Virus record (IMG/VR): IMGVR_UViG_2537561944_000042
Length of the DNA stretch: 57,168 bases
Reading direction: 5' to 3' (one strand)
From: a virus
Taxonomy: Duplodnaviria > Heunggongvirae > Uroviricota > Caudoviricetes
The notes under the pieces were generated by a model. That model searched no databases. It saw only the letters and a program-made list of their open reading frames with translations, and was not told the origin of the DNA. The translations under genes and the position numbers were made by a program. Shown piece after piece: positions 21,087 through 56,010 of the stretch. Position 1 is the stretch's first letter; each line of letters begins with the position of its first letter.

Positions 21087-21470
21087 TCAGAATGGGATGG
21101 AATCGTCGTATACAGGAGTGTTCTGCTGGTTACTACTTTGCTGCTGCGGGCCATTTCCTGAAGCTGCAAATCCAATCTTTGCATTCAGTAATTCAAGAGT
21201 GATTGATTGACCATTTTGCCCCTGATAAACATCAACCCTGATGTTTTCTCCGGTAATTTCCACAATGCCACCTTCAACAAGAACACTACGGTAGTAATCC
21301 GCTTGCGCTCCCGGCTTGGCAAATACAACGGCGCTGTAGTTTGTCCATTCTTTCTTTTTTGTCTGGCGATCGTAATACTGAACGCCAGCACGGATGTTGA
21401 ATCCGATATTTTCCCCGGCCTGAAACTCTCTTGCGGGCTTGTTTAGTCTTACAGTAATCGAATGTGCCAT
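21087..21470 (-). CDS. putative ssDNA-binding protein with acidic C-terminal DDSIPF tail
   Basis: ATG at 21470 overlaps the erf stop (TAATG); C-terminal ...PVYDDSIPF resembles the SSB tail. Confidence 0.5.
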   Translation of the reverse strand: MAHSITVRLNKPAREFQAGENIGFNIRAGVQYYDRQTKKKEWTNYSAVVFAKPGAQADYYRSVLVEGGIVEITGENIRVDVYQGQNGQSITLELLNAKIGFAASGNGPQQQSSNQQNTPVYDDSIPF

Positions 21471-22075
21471 TAAGCAGCAGCTCCTTCTAATTCGTCTCGT
21501 CTGATGTTGTAAACGTCCTGCGCTTTGTGCTGCTCCGGTGTGCCTTCGAGCATCTTCCACGCTTTGGCGAACGCCTGTTTAAGCTCTTCCACGGTGTTTT
21601 TCTGCAATGCTGCGTCAGTGAATGCTTTTAGAACCTGTTCAGGTGTAGGTGATGGTTTTGACTGCTTTGCTGCTGCGTTCTGCTGATGTTTATGCTCGTC
21701 GGTATCTGCATCTTTCGCATCATCAATGCCGAACAAACCATTGAGGCAATACTTGCGTGCATAAGAGCTTGTAGCTCCCGTAACTTGTGCAGAATCCATT
21801 CCTTTCTTGCTTTCTTCCTCTCGTGCAAGAGCGGTTGCCGTATGACTGTTTTCGCCATCGGTAATAGTTGCCGTGGCTTTCACATAATACCGATCACCAA
21901 TCAACACAACTTCATCGCTGATTGATAAAAACAGGCCATTCAGTAACGGCTTAACGCCTTCAAGAATGTCTTCGCAGCTTCTGTATTTATATTTACCGAA
22001 TGAGTTGTACTGATTCTTTGGCGCGTTCAAGTTCTCCTGAATAGCTGCCAGTCTTGCGTAAAAGTCTTTGCTCAT
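21470..22075 (-). CDS. erf: Erf-family single-strand annealing recombinase (P22 Erf-like)
   Basis: MSKDFYARLAAIQENLNAPKNQYNSFGKYKYRSCEDILEG... closely matches P22 Erf N-terminus as recalled; ATG at 22075. Confidence 0.85.
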   Translation of the reverse strand: MSKDFYARLAAIQENLNAPKNQYNSFGKYKYRSCEDILEGVKPLLNGLFLSISDEVVLIGDRYYVKATATITDGENSHTATALAREEESKKGMDSAQVTGATSSYARKYCLNGLFGIDDAKDADTDEHKHQQNAAAKQSKPSPTPEQVLKAFTDAALQKNTVEELKQAFAKAWKMLEGTPEQHKAQDVYNIRRDELEGAAA

Positions 22076-22164
22076 ATGTTTGTTCTCAGAATGGGCATGG
22101 CCCAAGGAAATAACGCTGATTTAATACTTCAGTCTTTGCCGCATTTAAAAATACGCGAACACCT

Positions 22165-22350
22165 TCACGATCTCCCTTCTGGCGATACATTAACGCCTGC
22201 TGCGTGTACATGCGTCTCTGTAACTTGCTCTCCTTCACTGTGGTTGCAAGTGACATGAATATCTCCTTCGTTACCGATTAATTCTTTCATCTGACGAATG
22301 AATTCTTCGTCTGACCAGTTATCTGTGAAACTCATTTCCTGCGATACCAC
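22165..22350 (-). CDS. hypothetical small early protein
   Basis: 61-aa ORF. Confidence 0.3.
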   Translation of the reverse strand: MVSQEMSFTDNWSDEEFIRQMKELIGNEGDIHVTCNHSEGEQVTETHVHAAGVNVSPEGRS

Positions 22351-22678: not shown

Positions 22679-23044
22679 TTAGGCGGCTGATGTTTCTTCT
22701 TTCAGGCTTTCGAGATATTTACGTGGGTCGTCGTAACATTGGCATTCGCTGTACCAATCCACCCAGCGATCAGTAAGCCCCACCTCTGATAAATCTTCAT
22801 CGGTAAGGCTCTCATCCCACATCTCAAGGCCGTTAGCATTGCAGTAATCAGGCTTGATGTTGTTGTCATACTGAAAGGCGTCATAATCAGCCAGTGCGCC
22901 CATCAGGCGAACACCCTCTTCAACACTTGCCACTTCTGCAATGAACGGTTTCATAGGTACTTGCGGGATATGCCAGACACGTAATTTCATATTTCCTCCG
23001 TCAAAAAAATCGCCCTCACATTGGAGGGCAAAGAAGATTTCCAA
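22679..23044 (-). CDS. hypothetical phage early protein
   Basis: 121-aa ORF; likely start at internal MKLRVWHIPQ. Confidence 0.4.
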   Translation of the reverse strand: MEIFFALQCEGDFFDGGNMKLRVWHIPQVPMKPFIAEVASVEEGVRLMGALADYDAFQYDNNIKPDYCNANGLEMWDESLTDEDLSEVGLTDRWVDWYSECQCYDDPRKYLESLKEETSAA

Positions 23045-49628: not shown

Positions 49629-51472
49629 TGAAAGTAACTGCAAACGGTAAGACATTTACCTTTCCTGATGGTACGAGCACCGAAGATATTGGCACCGCCA
49701 TTGATGAGTATTTTGCTGGTCAGGCTGTTCAGCAACAAACAGTTAATCAGGCCAATAATGCACCAACACGGGACGAACCATCATTGATGCAACAAGCTGG
49801 CGATTGGCTCACTGGTGGTCAAAGTGCAGGGCAAATTGCAGAACAGGCTGGTCGTGGTCTGGTAAACATACCATTTGACGTATTGCAGGGTGGCGCAAGT
49901 CTGATTAATGCAATCAGTCAGGGGCTTGGTGGGCCAAAAGTTTTGGATGATGTTTATCGTCCAGTAGACAAACCGACAGACCCATACGCACAAGCCGGTG
50001 AAACAATTGGTGGGTATTTAGTTCCAGGAGTTGGAACGGCAGGAAGCATGGCTATTGGATCGCTGGCAGAGGCCGCAAATCAGAAAGGCGATTTCGCACA
50101 AAATGCAGCTAAAAATGCCGGAGTTAACCTTGCCGCTCAGGGTGTTCTTTCCGCAGCAGCAAAGGGAATAGGGCGTGGAATAACGGCTATAAAAGGTGAT
50201 ATTGCGCCAGAAGTGGCGAAGAAAATTGCCACATCAGAATCGATGGGCGTGACACCAATGACATCTGATGTTATCCCGCCGAAAAATGCTTTCACTCGCG
50301 GCCTTACTCAGGATGCCGAGGGGGCTTTGCTCGGGACGGGCTCAAAGCGAGCAGAGCAATATGCAACGCGTAGTAAGCTGGTAAGCAATTATTTTGACCG
50401 TTTTGGTGAGTACAACCCTGATGATGTGGTGAAATCTCTGACCACCACGTTAAGGGGGCGGAAGGATGCTGCTGGCGCTGTTATCAATGACGTCACCAAT
50501 AAAATGGGTAATGCCGCAGTTGATACTACAAATACCATGAATGCTCTGAATACAGCGATCGCAAGACAGGAACGGCTTGGGACTTCAGCCAATCAAAGCC
50601 TGCTTACATCCTTGCGTAACCTGCGTGAAGAATTAGCAAACCCTGCAACTGATTTGGATGTTACGTTTGATCTCTTGCGTCAGCACAGAACAGCATTTAG
50701 ATCTAATGTTCAGGGAGATGCTATGGTCTTCCCCAACCAGGCAAAAGCAGCTACCAATATGGTAGAGAATGCAATGTCAAAAGACCTTCGTAACGCAGTT
50801 GCAAAAAACCTCGGTGCGTCAGACGCAGCAAAATACCTTAAAGCAAATTCCGATTATGCAAACGTTTATAATAAGGTGCTTAATAAAAACATTGCTAACA
50901 AGCTCAACAAGGCAAGCAGTGAAGCCAGTCCTGAACTTATAAATACTGTTGTATTAAGCAGAAAACCATCTGACGTGAAACGAATCTGGAGCGCATTGGA
51001 TGATAAAGGGAAAGATGCTATGCGTGCAGCTTACGTCAGCAAAATAGCGGAAAAGGCCGGTGACTCTCCAGCCAAGTTCATCACTGAAGTTAATAAGCTG
51101 AAATCTCAGTCAGGTGGTGAAATTTACAACACTATTTTTTCTGGAAAGCACATGAAAGAGCTTGATTCTCTTCATGAAGTTCTACAGAAAACAGCAAGGT
51201 CAGACACCGCAAATGTAGTAACTCAGACTGGGCAATCGCAAGCCAACAGGATAAGGACGATTGGCGCAACTGCGACTCTTGGCGTATCAATGGGGCTTGA
51301 GGCTGGTTTCGGTGCAATGATGCGCTTGTATGAGTCCAAAGCAGCAAGGAATGCTCTCTTACGTTTGGCAAACACCAAAGCAGGAACACCAGCCTATGAA
51401 AGAGCGCTAAATAATGCTGCAAATGCGATACGCCCTATACTCTCAAGCCAAATTACAGCAGAACAGCAATAA
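49625..51472 (+). CDS. ejection protein (P22 gp16-like)
   Basis: 615-aa ORF, same size and position as P22 gp16. Confidence 0.6.
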
Positions 51473-51486
51473 AAGATAAGATGTAA

Positions 51487-51972
51487 CTACCTGATATTAC
51501 TGCTACTGTTGCATGTTACCGTGTTTCCAAATCCTGAATTGCAGTTTGTATATGTGTCAACGCGTGTTGGGTAAGGTTGAGTTATAACAGGCTGGCGCGC
51601 TTTTTGCTCGATCGCTTGCATTGTGTTTACAGCCTGATAATTCAATAAAGCCTGCTGGAATGCTTGGCTTTGTGCTATTTGTTGGGCTTGTTCTTGGCTT
51701 TGTAATTGAACATAAAGATTCTGAAGCTCAAGTCTTGCCTGTGCGTCACTTATCTTGCCTTCATCGACACCTTTCCCGAGCATCTTTGCAGCAAGGACAT
51801 ACAGCTTAGGTGTTGGTGCTGATGCCATGCGTGAGTCGTTCTTCACACTGGCATCAAGGCAATTAGCCATATCGCTAAGCTTTTGATAGCGTTGTTCGCA
51901 ACTTGCTTGATAGTCACTTACTTTTGCGCATCCAACCAGCAGAAACGGGATAATTAACAGTGATTTTTTCAT
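51487..51972 (-). CDS. lipoprotein encoded antisense to the late operon (moron; candidate superinfection-exclusion or surface-modification factor)
   Basis: Signal peptide with lipobox MKKSLLIIPFLLVGC; Q-rich C-terminal region; ATG at 51972. Confidence 0.6.
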   Translation of the reverse strand: MKKSLLIIPFLLVGCAKVSDYQASCEQRYQKLSDMANCLDASVKNDSRMASAPTPKLYVLAAKMLGKGVDEGKISDAQARLELQNLYVQLQSQEQAQQIAQSQAFQQALLNYQAVNTMQAIEQKARQPVITQPYPTRVDTYTNCNSGFGNTVTCNSSSNIR

Positions 51973-52042
51973 ATGGTTAACTCTCCTTAGTTTTTCACAG
52001 GATATCATGAAGGCAATGCCATTTTAGCCGGAAACTAGATTT

Positions 52043-52342
52043 CTATGTTTCCTTTTTATTATTGCTATACATGGTCTTAAGCGTTTCAAAAACCATTTTC
52101 TTAACCATATCAGATTGTTGTTCTGCCATACGCTCTGCATCATCAATGTAAACGGATGCAGAGCTTTGTTTAGCCAACGATTCTTCAATCGCTGCAATTA
52201 TCTCTGAGTTCAGCGACCTGTTATTCATCTTCGCGCGCTGTTTAATTTTCGCGTGGAGTTCATGCGGAAGTCTCAAGTGAAACTGCGCCTCGTCGTATTT
52301 GCTGTACATCCTTGATGCCTCACCAGTTGGGTGGAATGGCAT
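52043..52342 (-). CDS. mnt: Mnt-like ribbon-helix-helix repressor (Arc/MetJ family)
   Basis: ...FHLRLPHELHAKIKQRAKMNNRSLNSEIIAAIEES...AERMAEQQSDMVKKMVFETLK parallels P22 Mnt as recalled. Confidence 0.75.
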   Translation of the reverse strand: MPFHPTGEASRMYSKYDEAQFHLRLPHELHAKIKQRAKMNNRSLNSEIIAAIEESLAKQSSASVYIDDAERMAEQQSDMVKKMVFETLKTMYSNNKKET

Positions 52343-52430
52343 CGTAACCTACTGGATAAATACTCAATAGTACCATTTCGGTATGCAATCACATCATGGT
52401 TGCATCATATCATTCTTCTGGAGCAATGAA

Positions 52431-54554
52431 ATGTCAGATATCACCGCAAATGTTGTGGTCAGCATGCCTTCGCAACTCTTCACTATGTCTCGCTCTTTTA
52501 AAGCCGTAGCCAATGGAAAAATTTATATCGGTAAAATTGACACTGACCCGGTAAATCCAGAAAACCAGATTCAGGTTTATGTGGAAAACGAAGACGGTTC
52601 TCACGTTCCTGTTTCGCAACCAATCATCATTAACGCTGCTGGTTACCCTGTATATAACGGACAGATTGCCAAGTTCGTAACTGTGCAAGGCCATTCTATG
52701 GCTGTTTATGATGCATACGGTGCGCAGCAGTTCTATTTTCCGAATGTGCTAAAGTATGATCCAGATCAGTTTAAGGGCAATCTCCTGAGCGAAGATCACT
52801 CACTTGGCGACTCTCTAGTCATGCATAACCCACAGTTTGTCGATAGCACATCGACCATTCTCTCAAAAAAGCTAACTATCGACCTGAGGACGCTTACAGA
52901 CTACGGGTTTGCTGAGGGAAACACCGGTGCTCAGAACAAAGCTGCATTTCAGAAGGCTATTGATGATGCTACGTTGCCAACTGAGATTGTTATACCAGAG
53001 GGGGCGTTCATTGTTGACCCTGGTATTACGATTAAGAATACTGTCACCATGATACGAGGTGCTGGCGCATATCAGTCCAGAATTTTCTCTACGGGTACAG
53101 CGGCACCGATAATCACGCAACAAGATGGGGTAATTACGTTCTGCGAGTTCAGGGACTTTGGTCTTGACGGAAATGGCTACGCAGCTAACGGCATCAGTCT
53201 TACTGAAGCCAACCACATTAAAATAGAAAATATTGACGTGGTTAATACTAATAACAACGCAATATTAGTTAACGGTTACTCCATTGACATCATTGGGTGC
53301 CGGTTGTTTCAAAACGCCGGTAACGGTATTAATGTTGGTGGTTACTGCAATAATATTAATATAATCAACAGCCGTATCTATGGTAACGGAGCCGGTGGAG
53401 TTTTACTTACGCCAGCTTACGCTGAGGGCGGTATGAGCGTCAGAGTTAATGGCAACAATATAGAGCAAAATAAGTTCTACGGACTTTTGGCTTACGGGGT
53501 TAAAGGCCTTAACCTTGATGCTAACTATTGGGAACGCAACGGTGAGATTGGTTACCCGTATAGTGTACCTGAGTCTATTACAGTACGTGCGGATATCCAC
53601 CTTATCGCGAACAATTTTACATTAATTCCTGACCTTTCAAAAATTAATGATACCGTATCTATTCGCGGGAATCAGCAGACCGCGATTGGCTACGCCAGCG
53701 CGCTACCTAACCAAGACGGATTTATTTTCACGAACTATGCGAAAAACCTGACGATTGAAAATAATCAGTTATTAGACGCATCGAAAGTGAATAATTTATT
53801 AGCAATGTACCACAATAATCTTTCGTCCAAAGTTACTGACAGGCTATATCTTGCCAACAACACAGTGAACTCCATCGGATACGTTGGTAGTTATGACCCG
53901 GCGACACAAAACCCTGACACTGCGCATTTAATAGATATTGCGAACAGAGAGTTAACTGCTAACTATCTTGATCGAAATATGTTGCTCTGGACTGCGGCAT
54001 CTGGAACTACAGGAACATTGATAAAAACTCAAAACATCTATGCTGGTAATTATTCATTCTTAGTTACGACAGGAGATAGAGTTTGGGGACGAACGATAGA
54101 CCTCAACAAATCACCAGAACTAAAAGGGAAATTTGTATGGTTTGGTGCGTGGGTCAATGACCAGGGATCAGCGTCAAAACTTATGTTTATAATTAATGGT
54201 GCAGGACAAACAGACTCTACAGCACCTTTAGCTGGTAATGGGAAATGGAGCTATGTTAGTTGTGGTGTGTATATATACGAAACTGATACAGCTATAAATG
54301 TTGGTATAAGAAATTATGGTTCAGGAAATGTACTCATAAACTCACCTTCTCTATGTGCATATGGAATGCCATCAAACGCGTTGCAAGTTGAAAAAACAAC
54401 ATTTTATCTTTCGTCAGTACCTACATCCGGTTTCTGGGATATAGGTGAGCGTGTTATCAATAGCGCACCTGCTTCAGGACAACCAAAGGCATGGACATGC
54501 AATATTCCAGGTGGGCCAGGAACCTATTCTTTCTTATCAGAGGGAAACTTTTAA
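52431..54554 (+). CDS. tailspike protein (P22 gp9-like N-terminal head-binding domain plus divergent beta-helix receptor-binding domain)
   Basis: [13 protein letters not shown]...[40 protein letters not shown]... matches the P22 tailspike N-terminus as recalled; ATG at 52431 with GGAG RBS. Confidence 0.85.
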
Positions 54555-54590: not shown

Positions 54591-55766
54591 ATGTTTAAAA
54601 AAATCAGTAAAACACATTTTGATATGGAAAGAAAAACAAATAAGTTAGACTCTATTCAAGTCCTTAGAGGGATCGCGGTACTTCTAGTCATTGCGTTTCA
54701 CTTTAGAGTATATTTAAATGGAGTGTATGCCCAAAAGGACTTGGGCGACATTCTTTTTGGTATAGGTGAGGTTGGTGTTGATATATTCTTTGTTATAAGT
54801 GGATTTATCATTACTTATTCTTCAATGAATAAGGCAAAAAACCGGCCAATGGTGTTTGCTGCTAAGCGTTTTTTTAGGTTGTACCCTGTTTACTTTATAA
54901 TCCTTACTCTGGCTATATACCTCAACTATGAGGCAATATATACATCATCACAAATAATAAAGAGCTACTTGCTCATACCAATTGACTATAATTTTATAGG
55001 GCCATGGTCAGGTTATAGTATAATAATACCTGCATGGACACTAACGTATGAAATTTGGTTCTATGTGGTTTTCTTTTTTTCATTATGCATCAGCCATAAA
55101 TATAGAACTGCGATCGCATCATTTCTTCTCATCATTATTTGCGTTCTTGGTCAACTGTACTTTCACGGAGATGTTTTTCTAAATCCTATCGCGCAACCGC
55201 CATCTGGTGATGGAATTATTCGTAATCTGGTATTTGTATCAAATCCAATAATATATGACTTTATTTTGGGGATGATTATTGCAGAGGCCTACATTAGGCT
55301 ACCTTCTAGACTTATAAATAAAATGCCTGTTGTTCAATTTCTTAATATTACATTAGCGATTGCCTTGCTTTTTTTATGTCTAGGGTTAAGGAATGGACCT
55401 GGAATTGTAGCATGGGGGGCTTATTCATTTATGATTATAGCCCCAATAGTCCTTATTTCTAAGTGTAGGGATGTATATAGAAATAAAATTCTAACGTATG
55501 TTGGTGAAATATCCTATTCACTTTACATTAATCATATGGTTGTATACAGTCTTGCTGTTTTATATCTCAAACCGTACGGGGTATTGGATAGTAAAGGATT
55601 TGGTGTTTTTCTAGCTATGATTTGCGCTACTTTTATTATATCAATCATATCTTATAACTTTATTGAAAAACCATCAGTATCCATAGGGCATGCCATCGCT
55701 CGTAGAATGCAAAAAAAATCAGATGTATCTTCAATTAAAACTGAATCCGTTAGAGAAGCACCTTGA
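54591..55766 (+). CDS. acyltransferase-3 family membrane protein (O-antigen acetyltransferase-like lysogenic conversion gene); start may be the second ATG at 54624
   Basis: 391-aa polytopic membrane ORF; N-terminal ...VLRGIAVLLVIAFHF... typical of acyltransferase 3; AT-rich. Confidence 0.8.
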   Translation: MFKKISKTHFDMERKTNKLDSIQVLRGIAVLLVIAFHFRVYLNGVYAQKDLGDILFGIGEVGVDIFFVISGFIITYSSMNKAKNRPMVFAAKRFFRLYPVYFIILTLAIYLNYEAIYTSSQIIKSYLLIPIDYNFIGPWSGYSIIIPAWTLTYEIWFYVVFFFSLCISHKYRTAIASFLLIIICVLGQLYFHGDVFLNPIAQPPSGDGIIRNLVFVSNPIIYDFILGMIIAEAYIRLPSRLINKMPVVQFLNITLAIALLFLCLGLRNGPGIVAWGAYSFMIIAPIVLISKCRDVYRNKILTYVGEISYSLYINHMVVYSLAVLYLKPYGVLDSKGFGVFLAMICATFIISIISYNFIEKPSVSIGHAIARRMQKKSDVSSIKTESVREAP

Positions 55767-56010
55767 TAAATAGAGCAATAGCCAGATAGCACCTAACCGA
55801 TTTCGTACTCATAGGGTTGTCACTTTACCAAACTGAGAGGAAATACACTGATAACAGTTGGTTATGAAGTACTGGGTGAGGTGGATGTGAATGGTATTTT
55901 GATGCATTTCATTAACCTGTACGCCTAAGAAAGCAACCCTGAAATCTAAGACACACAAGCTTTGCACTGGATTGCAAGGCTTTGTGCACTTCGATAGTGG
56001 TTAAGGTGGT

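What the first reader, a model, noticed from the sequence alone, without database searches (positions are those of the whole stretch)
51487..51972. Lipoprotein gene encoded antisense between the ejection proteins and mnt
A clear lipobox signal peptide (LLVGC) and the opposite orientation to the late operon mark it as independently expressed. Phage-encoded outer-membrane lipoproteins in this kind of position often block receptor or DNA entry (superinfection exclusion).
Basis: partly seen in the sequence, partly recalled or inferred. Interest (0 to 1): 0.45.

Follow-up and report, generated by a model that had tools for sequence, protein, structure and literature searches.

The report
Prophage lipoprotein gene replacing sieA
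A P22-like prophage of E. coli O26 carries a real, strongly conserved gene for an outer-membrane-anchored periplasmic lipoprotein of an uncharacterised family, sitting in the slot (and behind the same leader sequence) where phage P22 keeps its superinfection-exclusion gene sieA, so it is probably a lysogen-expressed envelope protection factor, although no function has been tested.

Summary
Window 51487-51972 (-) is a 161-aa ORF with an AAGGAG ribosome-binding site and a lipoprotein signal peptide (MKKSLLIIPFLLVG|C). It lies convergent with the gene-16 ejection-protein gene and downstream of mnt, in a P22-like prophage of E. coli O26.

It is a real gene. All 94 related copies are intact, median dN/dS is 0.05, and the lipobox cysteine and four further cysteines are conserved.

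No Pfam, NCBIfam, PADLOC or PDB match exists; only PHROG 6067 (unknown function) matches. A confident AlphaFold model (pLDDT 91) shows a small helical domain, a 50-residue helix and a C-terminal hairpin. It has no significant structural neighbour.

It is unrelated to SieA but fills the same slot. Among 60 P22-like loci, 16 carry it, about 20 carry sieA-like ORFs, 24 carry neither and none carries both. In some prophages it follows the P22 sieA upstream region exactly up to the Shine-Dalgarno, an ORF-for-ORF swap.

Published RNA-seq of a 96%-identical ortholog (prophage Gally, strain LF82) shows lysogen transcription well above the adjacent late gene, highest in macrophages.

Independent expression and lipoprotein nature are supported. 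Superinfection exclusion is the best but untested hypothesis.

The parts
51487..51972 (-). Coding sequence of the 161-aa lipoprotein precursor (stop codon at 51487-51489)
   Evidence: ORF list and sequence. Identical to RefSeq WP_000749284.1. PHROG 6067 at E 1.6e-110. Median dN/dS 0.05.
51928..51972 (-). Signal peptide (residues 1-14) and lipidated Cys15. The lipobox L12-V13-G14-C15 lies at 51928-51939. Ala at +2, never Asp in the family, predicts Lol sorting to the outer membrane.
   Evidence: Sequence. C15 is invariant in 26 homologues and the +2 residue is A/T/V. LVGC or LAGC occurs in 61 of 63 unique alleles. Outer-membrane sorting is inferred from the E. coli +2 rule (established knowledge).
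51673..51921 (-). Conserved N-terminal helical domain (about residues 18-100) with invariant C25 and C38 (probable disulfide) and the motifs YQxxCE, KLYxLxAK and DAxAR
   Evidence: Alignments A1, A2 and A7. This is the region shared with about 250 distant clusters. AlphaFold pLDDT 95-98.
51598..51747 (-). Long helix (residues 76-125). Its distal half is Gln-rich (15 Q in 44 residues) and variable in length across the family.
   Evidence: AlphaFold model m35230fa7893f, helix 76-125. Composition. Alignment gaps.
51493..51561 (-). C-terminal beta-hairpin (residues 138-160) with two conserved Cys (T-x-C-x3-G-N-x3-C-x-S) at or near the C-terminus
   Evidence: conservation; strands 138-146 and 152-160.
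51983..52010 (-). Conserved leader block TCATGATATCCTGTGAAAAACTAAGGAG. It holds an extended -10-like TGaTATCCT (51999-52007) and the Shine-Dalgarno AAGGAG (51983-51988). It is homologous to the leader of P22 sieA.
   Evidence: The block is shared with the P22 sieA upstream sequence and kept in most upstream contexts. A TGnTAnnCT-like element recurs in Tatumella and MAG homologues. Promoter function is inferred, not shown.
52043..52342 (-). mnt (Arc/Mnt ribbon-helix-helix repressor), immediately upstream on the same strand (RefSeq start at 52309). The 70-nt spacer has no intrinsic terminator, so co-transcription is likely.
   Evidence: Pfam Arc and Repressor_Mnt. No terminator-like site in 51200-52700. 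The spacer hairpin lacks a U-tract.
52409..52437 (-). Sigma-70-like promoter candidate upstream of mnt (CTGACA-17-AATGAT), in the position of Pmnt
   Evidence: Consensus scan. Position corresponds to the annotated P22 Pmnt arrangement. This is a consensus match only.
49625..51472 (+). Gene-16-type ejection protein gene, the convergent neighbour that defines one side of the slot
   Evidence: PHROG 770 at E 6e-279. 74% identical to P22 gp16.
52431..54554 (+). Tailspike gene, the other side of the slot
   Evidence: RefSeq annotation. The head-binding domain was used to retrieve 80 comparison loci.

Best explanation
The gene encodes a prophage-expressed accessory protein (a 'moron').

Proposed sequence of events:
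1. The precursor is exported, lipidated at Cys15 and cleaved by signal peptidase II.
2. Because residue +2 is Ala, Lol sends it to the inner leaflet of the outer membrane.
3. From there a compact disulfide-bonded helical domain, a roughly 50-residue helix and a disulfide-bonded C-terminal hairpin project into the periplasm.
4. It is transcribed in the lysogen independently of the late operon. Transcription comes from a sieA-type leader or promoter and, in this window, probably also by read-through from Pmnt.

It is an alternative cargo of the sieA slot of P22-like phages. It most likely protects the lysogen at the envelope by interfering in the periplasm with DNA delivery by superinfecting phages. 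It would thus be a functional analogue of SieA, acting from the outer-membrane side, and not a homologue.

Shown: the gene is real and constrained, it has a lipoprotein signal, it shares the slot and leader with sieA, and its ortholog is transcribed in a lysogen.

Inferred: outer-membrane location, promoter identity, exclusion activity and its target.
For: Gene reality and lipoprotein nature:
- ORF, ribosome-binding site and lipobox.
- Invariant Cys15, C25, C38 and C154, and a +2 residue that is never Asp.
- 94 of 94 copies intact, with dN/dS 0.05.
- Confident model, pLDDT 91.3.

Same slot as sieA:
- In P22, sieA lies 23 nt after gene 16 on the opposite strand. Here the gap is 14 nt.
- The position between gene 16 and the tailspike is kept in Yersinia, Morganella, Serratia and Proteus elements.
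- Among 60 P22-like IMG/VR loci with a complete slot, 16 carry the lipoprotein, 20 carry sieA-cluster ORFs of at least 109 aa, 24 carry neither and 0 carry both (Fisher one-sided p = 0.0004, nominal).

ORF swap:
- In L157 and L159 the 644 nt upstream of the lipoprotein gene are 98% identical to the P22 and L109 sieA upstream region, including orf59a and the annotated PsieA. Identity runs up to AAAACTAAGGAG, then diverges.
- About 15 of 94 copies have this arrangement.

Independent module:
- Alleles at least 95% identical sit next to gp16 proteins that are 97-100%, 41%, 34% or 31% identical to the window's gp16.
- An empty site and a filled site differ by a clean indel of about 620 bp.

Expression of the Gally ortholog LF82_138, 96% identical. 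Values are log2(fpkm+5):
- LB: 6.3/6.0.
- DMEM: 7.9-8.2.
- Macrophage 1 h: 10.3.
- Macrophage 6 h: 8.5-8.7.
- Adjacent gene 16: 3.6-4.2 in every condition.
- Macrophage 6 h versus LB: log2FC 2.55, q = 4.7e-27.
Source: PMC9928086 Tables S1 and S4.

Against: - No exclusion phenotype has been measured for any family member.
- There is no sequence or fold similarity to SieA (hhalign probability 0.1%) or to any known exclusion or defence protein.
- Near-identical alleles pair with very different gp16 types, so there is no sign of co-evolution with the presumed target. SieA is also broad, so this is weak evidence.
- The LF82 authors did not count the gene as a moron in LB (4.5-fold above median, below their 5-fold cutoff). 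Its macrophage induction is shared by the neighbouring mnt and tailspike genes, so it may reflect regional de-repression.
- Distant superfamily members occur in chromosomal, non-phage contexts.
- The window copy lacks the annotated PsieA -35/-10, and the promoter scan found no site in the mnt-lipoprotein spacer.
- The locus sample is not phylogenetically independent, so the Fisher p-value is only indicative.
Confidence: 0.45

Rival explanations
1. Host-fitness or virulence moron rather than phage exclusion. The outer-membrane lipoprotein would help the lysogen survive envelope or host-imposed stress (serum, macrophage vacuole, antimicrobials), in the manner of lambda Bor. Its position in the sieA slot would only reflect a convenient recombination hot spot for prophage-expressed cargo.
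For: - The ortholog is strongly up-regulated in DMEM and inside macrophages relative to LB (PMC9928086).
- Other unrelated cargo also sits in this region, for example a PEGA-like lipoprotein and a 134-aa HExxH ORF.
- Distant relatives lie next to a TolC/RND efflux operon in an environmental bacterium and have no phage neighbours.
- The gene stays intact in a prophage whose integrase is a pseudogene, and in a Serratia prophage remnant.
Against: - No similarity to Bor, TraT or other known virulence lipoproteins (no Pfam hit at E <= 0.1).
- The gene never co-occurs with sieA, and there is a precise ORF swap behind the sieA leader. This is more than mere proximity.
- Close family members are found only in P22-like elements, at one fixed position.
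- Deleting the neighbouring mnt did not change LF82 survival in macrophages, and the same paper's text states that Gally had no negative effect on that survival. The lipoprotein itself was not tested.
Confidence: 0.25
2. Receptor-masking exclusion of the Llp/Cor type. The lipoprotein would bind the periplasmic face of an outer-membrane protein used as a secondary receptor (such as OmpA or OmpC for Sf6-like phages, or a TonB-dependent transporter for unrelated phages). This would lock the receptor so that incoming phages cannot trigger ejection. The block would act at receptor level rather than on the ejection-protein conduit.
For: - Predicted outer-membrane anchoring and disulfide-bonded small domains resemble the general design of T5 Llp. 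That resemblance rests on recalled knowledge and was not tested here.
- The lack of linkage to any gp16 type fits a host-protein target better than a phage-protein target.
- The extreme C-terminal conserved hairpin could insert into a barrel lumen (speculative).
Against: - No sequence similarity to any PHROG annotated as Cor, Llp or exclusion.
- At 147 mature residues with a 50-residue helix, it is much larger than Llp or Cor (size of those recalled from memory).
- P22 SieA, whose slot it shares, does not affect adsorption (PMC10883804).
- No candidate receptor has been identified.
Confidence: 0.15
3. A component of the phage's own lytic cycle: a virion structural protein, a spanin-like lysis protein, or a factor that prevents re-adsorption of progeny to lysing cells.
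For: - The gene is adjacent to virion genes.
- sieA is reported to rise during induction, so slot genes can be expressed late as well.
Against: - It has a signal peptidase II signal and lies on the opposite strand to the late operon.
- It is absent from most P22-like phages: 5 of 50,697 phage records, and 16 of 60 sampled loci. It therefore cannot be essential.
- The prophage already has its own holin, endolysin and 'lysis protein' genes.
- The only hit to a structural family is insignificant (E 0.008, within the Gln-rich helix).
Confidence: 0.04

Closest known systems
P22 SieA (superinfection exclusion protein A; types A-C, Leavitt et al. 2024, PMC10883804)
   Same: - Same genomic slot: convergent just after gene 16 and before mnt or the tailspike.
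- Similar size (about 160 aa).
- Same leader and Shine-Dalgarno. In some prophages the upstream region is 98% identical, including the annotated putative PsieA.
- The two never co-occur in the sampled loci.
- Both are envelope proteins transcribed from the prophage.

   Different: - No homology (hhalign probability 0.1%).
- SieA is a three-pass inner-membrane protein without a signal peptide and has a cytoplasmic FxRYPxEAxxFNK motif. This protein is a soluble periplasmic domain tethered by a lipid, predicted to sit at the outer membrane.
- An exclusion function is demonstrated for SieA and not for this protein.
Phage lipoprotein exclusion factors: T5 Llp, phi80/N15/HK022 Cor (Gram-negative), TP-J34 Ltp (Gram-positive)
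   Same: They share the general design of a small phage-encoded lipoprotein, made in the infected cell or lysogen and facing the compartment that incoming phage DNA must cross. Ltp targets the incoming phage's own DNA-delivery protein (the tape measure), which is the closest mechanistic analogy to the proposal made here. These family properties come from the literature cited in PMC10883804 and from memory.
   Different: - No sequence similarity. Only PHROG 6067 matches, and there is no Pfam hit at all (my recollection is that Pfam holds a Lipoprotein_Ltp model).
- No structural match in PDB or BFVD.
- The host phage type differs (short-tailed P22-like), so the target would have to differ as well.
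Lambda Bor / plasmid TraT (prophage or plasmid outer-membrane lipoproteins conferring serum resistance or surface exclusion)
   Same: Prophage-borne, lysogen-expressed outer-membrane lipoprotein moron. In strain LF82 the Bor gene of another prophage is likewise induced in DMEM.
   Different: No Pfam match of any kind at E <= 0.1. The predicted architecture is different.
PHROG 6067 and RefSeq 'hypothetical protein' WP_000749284.1
   Same: This is the family the gene belongs to. The match is full-length at E 1.6e-110, and all 30 diverse members tested match it.
   Different: The family carries no annotation, so membership gives no functional information.

Membership tests
Bacterial lipoprotein (signal peptidase II substrate) | N-terminal positively charged region, hydrophobic stretch, and a lipobox [LVI][ASTVI][GAS]C with an invariant Cys | tested here: met
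   The N-terminus is MKKSLLIIPFLLVG|C. Cys15 is invariant and G14 at least 90% conserved in 26 homologues. A PROSITE-like lipobox pattern matched 59 of 63 unique alleles.
Bacterial lipoprotein (signal peptidase II substrate) | Actual lipidation, globomycin-sensitive cleavage, and outer-membrane versus inner-membrane localisation | not testable with these tools
   Only the +2 rule can be applied. The +2 residue is A/T/V and never Asp, which predicts outer-membrane sorting in Enterobacteriaceae.
SieA family (P22 superinfection exclusion A, types A-C) | Sequence homology to SieA, including the FxRYPxEAxxFNK motif | tested here: not met
   hhalign of profile A2 against P22 SieA gives probability 0.1%. 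The motif is absent from the sequence.
SieA family (P22 superinfection exclusion A, types A-C) | Polytopic inner-membrane protein with three or four transmembrane helices | tested here: not met
   No 19-residue hydropathy window reaches 1.6, whereas SieA has three such segments.
SieA family (P22 superinfection exclusion A, types A-C) | Located between genes 16 and 9 of a P22-like prophage, on the opposite strand, and expressed from the prophage | tested here: met
   (position). (shared leader). (ortholog RNA-seq).
SieA family (P22 superinfection exclusion A, types A-C) | Blocks DNA injection by P22-like phages | not testable with these tools
   This needs plating, potassium-efflux or DNA-entry assays.
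Known lipoprotein exclusion or serum-resistance families (Llp, Cor, Ltp, Bor, TraT) | Sequence membership in the corresponding Pfam or PHROG family | tested here: not met
   Pfam gave 0 families at E <= 0.1. PHROGs gave only 6067 (unknown function) plus two insignificant hits. PADLOC gave 0. NCBIfam gave only a spurious GspK hit, 18.8 bits against a cutoff of 130.
Known lipoprotein exclusion or serum-resistance families (Llp, Cor, Ltp, Bor, TraT) | Structural similarity to a solved member | tested here: not met
Moron (autonomously expressed prophage accessory gene) | A discrete insertion relative to related phages, not needed for the lytic cycle | tested here: met
   Empty and filled sites differ by about 620 bp. 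The gene is present in 16 of 60 sampled loci and 5 of 50,697 phage records. It pairs with four different gp16 types.
Moron (autonomously expressed prophage accessory gene) | Transcribed in the lysogen while flanking late genes are silent | tested here: met
   This is shown for the 96%-identical Gally ortholog, not for this strain. Its normalised LB count is 70, against 13.7 for gene 16 and a prophage median of 15.6. Expression is much higher in DMEM and macrophages (PMC9928086 Tables S1 and S4). The value falls just below that paper's 5-fold moron cutoff in LB.
Moron (autonomously expressed prophage accessory gene) | Own promoter and terminator | tested here: inconclusive
   A conserved TGnTAnnCT extended -10-like block lies about 27 nt upstream of the start codon. 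However, the consensus scan found no promoter in the spacer and no terminator. No transcription start site data are available.

The most novel reading that the evidence does not exclude
The protein founds a new class of anti-podovirus exclusion factor. It would be an outer-membrane-tethered, periplasm-spanning lipoprotein whose long helix and C-terminal disulfide hairpin intercept or cap the trans-envelope conduit built by the ejection proteins (gp7/gp20/gp16) of incoming P22-like phages. This would act from the outer-membrane side and complement SieA, which acts at the inner membrane. The roughly 250-cluster superfamily with the same N-domain and C-terminal Cys hairpin, found widely in metagenomes and partly in bacterial chromosomes, would then be a widespread, unrecognised envelope-level phage-defence family.
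Probability: 0.2. Interest if true: 0.65.

Novelty: new variant of a known kind. Interest (0 to 1): 0.45.

Why it matters
How short-tailed phages build a DNA conduit across the Gram-negative envelope, and how that step can be blocked, is still poorly understood. [quoted passage not shown]

The analysis here points to a second, unrelated protein that evolution has placed under the same expression signals in the same slot. That protein is predicted to work from the outer membrane or periplasm rather than the inner membrane.

If it excludes phages, escape mutants would identify which part of the ejection machinery is exposed in the periplasm. An unannotated family (PHROG 6067; 186 complete E. coli genomes, including O26 EHEC and AIEC strain LF82) would also gain a function.

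If it instead serves host fitness, its strong induction in macrophages would make it a candidate prophage-borne adaptation factor in pathogenic E. coli.

Either outcome can be reached with simple genetics.

Tried and rejected
- **Family searches.** Pfam, NCBIfam and PADLOC gave nothing useful for the protein itself, and Pfam, NCBIfam and a PDB-sequence profile gave nothing for 30 diverse relatives. The GspK hit, and one source's 'GspK' name for a Cronobacter homologue, is a low-complexity artefact of the Gln-rich helix.
- **Co-variation with the presumed target.** Rejected. Near-identical alleles sit beside gp16 proteins only 31-41% identical to each other.
- **Canonical promoter or terminator.** None was found in the mnt-lipoprotein spacer by consensus scan. 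The hairpin after the mnt stop codon has no U-tract. No Rfam family is present in the region.
- **Genomic context of the distant superfamily.**
  - Viral-contig scans with distant sub-alignments found nothing new.
  - The metagenome scan gave 16 loci, mostly too short. The informative ones were chromosomal.
  - Cluster look-up gave no names or taxa.
- **Literature.** No paper mentions WP_000749284 or describes a lipoprotein at this locus. The SieA paper notes that only 22 of 66 P22-like phages have sieA but does not discuss alternative occupants of the slot.
- **The longer 173-aa ORF** (start 52008) was rejected as the real start. It has no ribosome-binding site, it lies in the conserved leader, and RefSeq uses the 161-aa start.
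Full report
**1. Is the feature there?**

Yes. Window 51487-51972 (minus strand) is a 161-codon ORF. It starts at ATG 51972, with AAGGAG 10 nt upstream. The product begins MKKSLLIIPFLLVG|CAKV. That is a short basic region, a hydrophobic stretch, the lipobox L-V-G-C and Ala at +2.

The window matches an E. coli O26 chromosome at 100% identity across this gene. RefSeq calls the same 161-aa product 'hypothetical protein' WP_000749284.1 there.

The surrounding genes form the late-operon end of a P22-like (Lederbergvirus-type) prophage:
- gp7-, gp20- and gp16-type ejection proteins on the plus strand (Pfam Inj_translocase; PHROGs 917 and 770);
- this gene and an Arc/Mnt repressor gene on the minus strand;
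- the tailspike gene, an acyltransferase gene and the end of the element.

The stop codons of gene 16 and the lipoprotein gene are 14 nt apart.

**2. Is it a real gene?**

Yes.
- The DNA occurs in 186 of 5426 complete E. coli genomes and in five sequenced phages: Gally, vB_EcoP-720R6, VSe13, MS2 LVA and Proteus phage Brookers.
- A protein search found 94 relatives, and every one that carries an organism name is from Enterobacterales.
- In 94 copies collected with flanking DNA, every reading frame is intact, and 86 are exactly 161 codons long.
- Median pairwise dN/dS over 1375 comparisons is 0.05. The window and phage VSe13 differ by dS 0.58 but dN only 0.023.
- Cys15 of the lipobox, C25, C38 and C154 are invariant in 26 homologues. 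The +2 residue is never Asp.

**3. What kind of protein is it?**

No Pfam, NCBIfam or PADLOC family matches, and no PDB sequence does either. The only hit is PHROG 6067, which has unknown function.

An exhaustive profile search found about 250 clusters (at 50% identity) of small lipoproteins, typically about 105-190 aa, that share three features:
- the N-terminal domain of about 100 residues, with motifs Q-x2-C-E, a second Cys, KLYxLKA and DA[RK];
- a variable linker;
- usually a C-terminal T-x-C-x3-G-x4-C-x-[ST]-[YR] motif.

With a 124-sequence alignment, AlphaFold gives a confident model (mean pLDDT 91.3). It has helices at 18-28, 32-45, 47-51 and 53-70, one long helix at 76-125 whose distal half is Gln-rich, and a beta-hairpin at 138-160.

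There is no transmembrane segment beyond the signal peptide. By the E. coli +2 rule, the mature protein should be tethered to the inner leaflet of the outer membrane and face the periplasm. The two Cys pairs suggest two disulfides. These last points are inferences.

**4. Genomic logic: the sieA slot.**

In P22, sieA lies 23 nt after gene 16 on the opposite strand. It is followed upstream by its annotated (putative) promoter, then orf59a, mnt, arc, ant and gene 9. The lipoprotein gene occupies that same position here. It also does so in prophages of Yersinia ruckeri and Morganella, in phage Brookers of Proteus, and in a Serratia prophage remnant.

I sampled 80 IMG/VR contigs through the conserved tailspike head-binding domain. 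Sixty contained both the gene-16 end and the tailspike start:
- 16 carry the lipoprotein gene;
- 20 carry sieA-cluster ORFs of at least 109 aa, only 9 of which are 150 aa or longer;
- 24 carry neither, and most of these have a 508-bp slot holding only mnt;
- none carries both.

Fisher's one-sided test gives p = 0.0004, or p = 0.048 if only sieA ORFs of at least 150 aa are counted. Both values are nominal, because the loci are not phylogenetically independent.

The protein is not related to SieA. hhalign gives probability 0.1%. SieA is a three-pass inner-membrane protein (PMC10883804).

**5. The ORF-for-ORF swap.**

In L157 and L159 the 644 nt upstream of the lipoprotein start codon are 98% identical to the sieA upstream region of P22 and of a sieA-bearing prophage. 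This stretch includes mnt, orf59a and the annotated PsieA. Identity ends at the Shine-Dalgarno:
- lipoprotein copy: ...TTTTTTCATGGTATCCTGCGCAAAACTAAGGAG|AGTTAATTATATG;
- sieA copy: ...TTTTTTCATGGTATCCTGCACAAAACTAAGGAG|GTTGGTGTG.

About 15 of 94 copies have this arrangement. About 40 have the window's arrangement, with the mnt stop codon 70 nt upstream. About 11 have a Gally-type arrangement, and several others are unique.

Almost all keep the block CATGrTATCCTG...AAAACTAAGGAG. Tatumella and MAG homologues keep a TGnTAnnCT element at the equivalent place, and the Serratia and Morganella homologues carry better -10 hexamers there (TGtTAAAAT and TATAAT). This looks like an extended -10 promoter, which would explain how the gene stays expressed in many contexts. 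That reading is an inference.

The consensus scan found no canonical promoter in the spacer. The window copy lacks the -35/-10 that the P22 record annotates.

In the window, the absence of a terminator between mnt and the gene makes read-through from a Pmnt-like promoter (52437-52409) likely as well.

**6. Independent module.**

Alleles at least 95% identical lie next to gp16 proteins that are 97-100%, 41%, 34% or 31% identical to the window's gp16. An empty site and a filled site with the same gp16 type differ by a clean segment of about 620 bp. That segment comprises the gene, its leader and the 3' end of mnt. This is typical moron behaviour. It also means there is no detectable co-evolution with gp16.

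**7. Expression.**

Phage Gally of AIEC strain LF82 carries a 96%-identical ortholog, GALLYPH_13 / LF82_138. The published RNA-seq (PMC9928086, Tables S1 and S4) gives these values as log2(fpkm+5), two replicates each:

| Condition | Ortholog |
|---|---|
| LB stationary phase | 6.29 / 5.96 |
| DMEM | 7.87-8.22 |
| Macrophages, 1 h | 10.29 / 10.30 |
| Macrophages, 6 h | 8.70 / 8.54 |

- The convergent gene 16 stays at 3.6-4.15 in all conditions.
- Macrophage 6 h versus LB gives log2FC 2.55, q = 4.7e-27.
- In LB the normalised count is 70, against a prophage median of 15.6.
- That is just under the authors' 5-fold cutoff, which is why they reported Gally as having no morons.
- The neighbouring genes (a second lipoprotein, mnt, the tailspike and one more) are induced together with it. 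The induction may therefore be regional.

**8. Interpretation.**

Shown or strongly supported: this is a real, constrained lipoprotein gene. It is an accessory cassette of P22-like prophages, alternative to sieA, shares sieA's leader, and is transcribed in lysogens independently of the late operon.

Most likely function (confidence about 0.45): envelope-level protection of the lysogen against superinfection. It would act in the periplasm on the DNA-delivery step, as a functional analogue of SieA working from the outer-membrane side.

Rivals:
- a host-fitness lipoprotein of the Bor kind (about 0.25), supported by macrophage/DMEM induction and by chromosomal distant relatives next to an efflux operon;
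- receptor masking of the Llp/Cor kind (about 0.15);
- a role in the phage's own lytic cycle (about 0.04), which is unlikely because most P22-like phages lack the gene.

**9. Comparison and novelty.**

The gene belongs to PHROG 6067 and to no characterised family. It works, at the level of genome logic, like sieA, but it fails every structural membership criterion of SieA. It shares only the general concept with Llp, Cor, Ltp and Bor.

I found no paper that describes it.

I rate it a new variant of a known kind: a prophage-encoded envelope moron or exclusion candidate. It is of moderate interest because it is immediately testable and could expose the periplasmic stage of podovirus DNA delivery.

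Noticed in passing
window ~14034-15224 and ~21123-22279 (mapped from NZ_CP028126.1 3389834-3391024 and 3382779-3383935): The prophage looks defective. Its own integrase is annotated as a pseudogene with an internal stop, an IS600 copy sits in the early-left region next to kil, and a DUF2737 gene has an internal stop. The lipoprotein gene is nevertheless intact.
   Followed up: partly
window 22679-22990 (-): The same prophage carries a homologue of P22 gene 17 ('Superinfection exclusion gene product 17', Pfam PF17420, E 2e-53). The element therefore holds more than one exclusion-related gene.
   Followed up: partly
window 52043-52430: The immI region is reduced to mnt alone. There is no arc or ant, and mnt abuts the tailspike gene directly, which leaves open what Mnt represses here. 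Many sampled loci (the 508-bp slots) show the same minimal arrangement.
   Followed up: no
window 54625-55767 (+): An acyltransferase-family gene lies just after the tailspike gene and before the neighbouring intS and tRNA-Arg. It is a likely O-antigen-modifying lysogenic-conversion gene.
   Followed up: no
L002 4620-5039 (+) (phage Gally GALLYPH_14); same ORF in 7 of 60 sampled loci, e.g. L136 2980-3432: A second, unrelated lipoprotein (MKRIIGVVAGAILLSGC..., weak PEGA-domain hit at E 0.004) lies between the lipoprotein gene and mnt on the opposite strand. In the LF82 data it is the most strongly expressed gene of this region, with log2 values of 9.8-11 in DMEM and macrophages.
   Followed up: partly
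L177 2173-2577 (+) and six other loci: A 134-aa ORF containing an HExxH-like motif (HECAHM) occurs in 7 of 60 loci, always together with a sieA-cluster ORF. It has no Pfam match.
   Followed up: no
L112, L123, L136, L147, L148, L158, L160, L166, L169, L175, L179 (slot just after gene 16): Many sieA-cluster ORFs are only 109-129 aa, against 162-164 aa for P22 SieA. They may be truncated or decayed sieA alleles, or ORFs whose start was mis-called.
   Followed up: no
L187 / L190 7992-8378 (+): A distant superfamily member (about 50% identical to the environmental subfamily query used for the scan) sits in an environmental bacterial chromosome. It lies between two unannotated ORFs and a TolC-like/RND/MFP/TetR efflux operon, near ClpA-like and arginyltransferase-like ORFs (these gene identities were read by eye from ORF translations and not checked with a tool), with no phage genes nearby.
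   Followed up: partly
L009-L011 (Serratia marcescens): The lipoprotein gene survives in what looks like a prophage remnant (tailspike, Bro-N protein, lipoprotein, truncated gene 16) flanked by host genes. This is consistent with retention for host benefit.
   Followed up: no
window 52006-52008: An in-frame upstream ATG gives a 173-aa ORF. Similar upstream starts give 171-184-aa ORFs in related loci, and the Gally record annotates a 171-aa product. In the window this ATG lies inside the conserved promoter-like block and is probably not used.
   Followed up: yes
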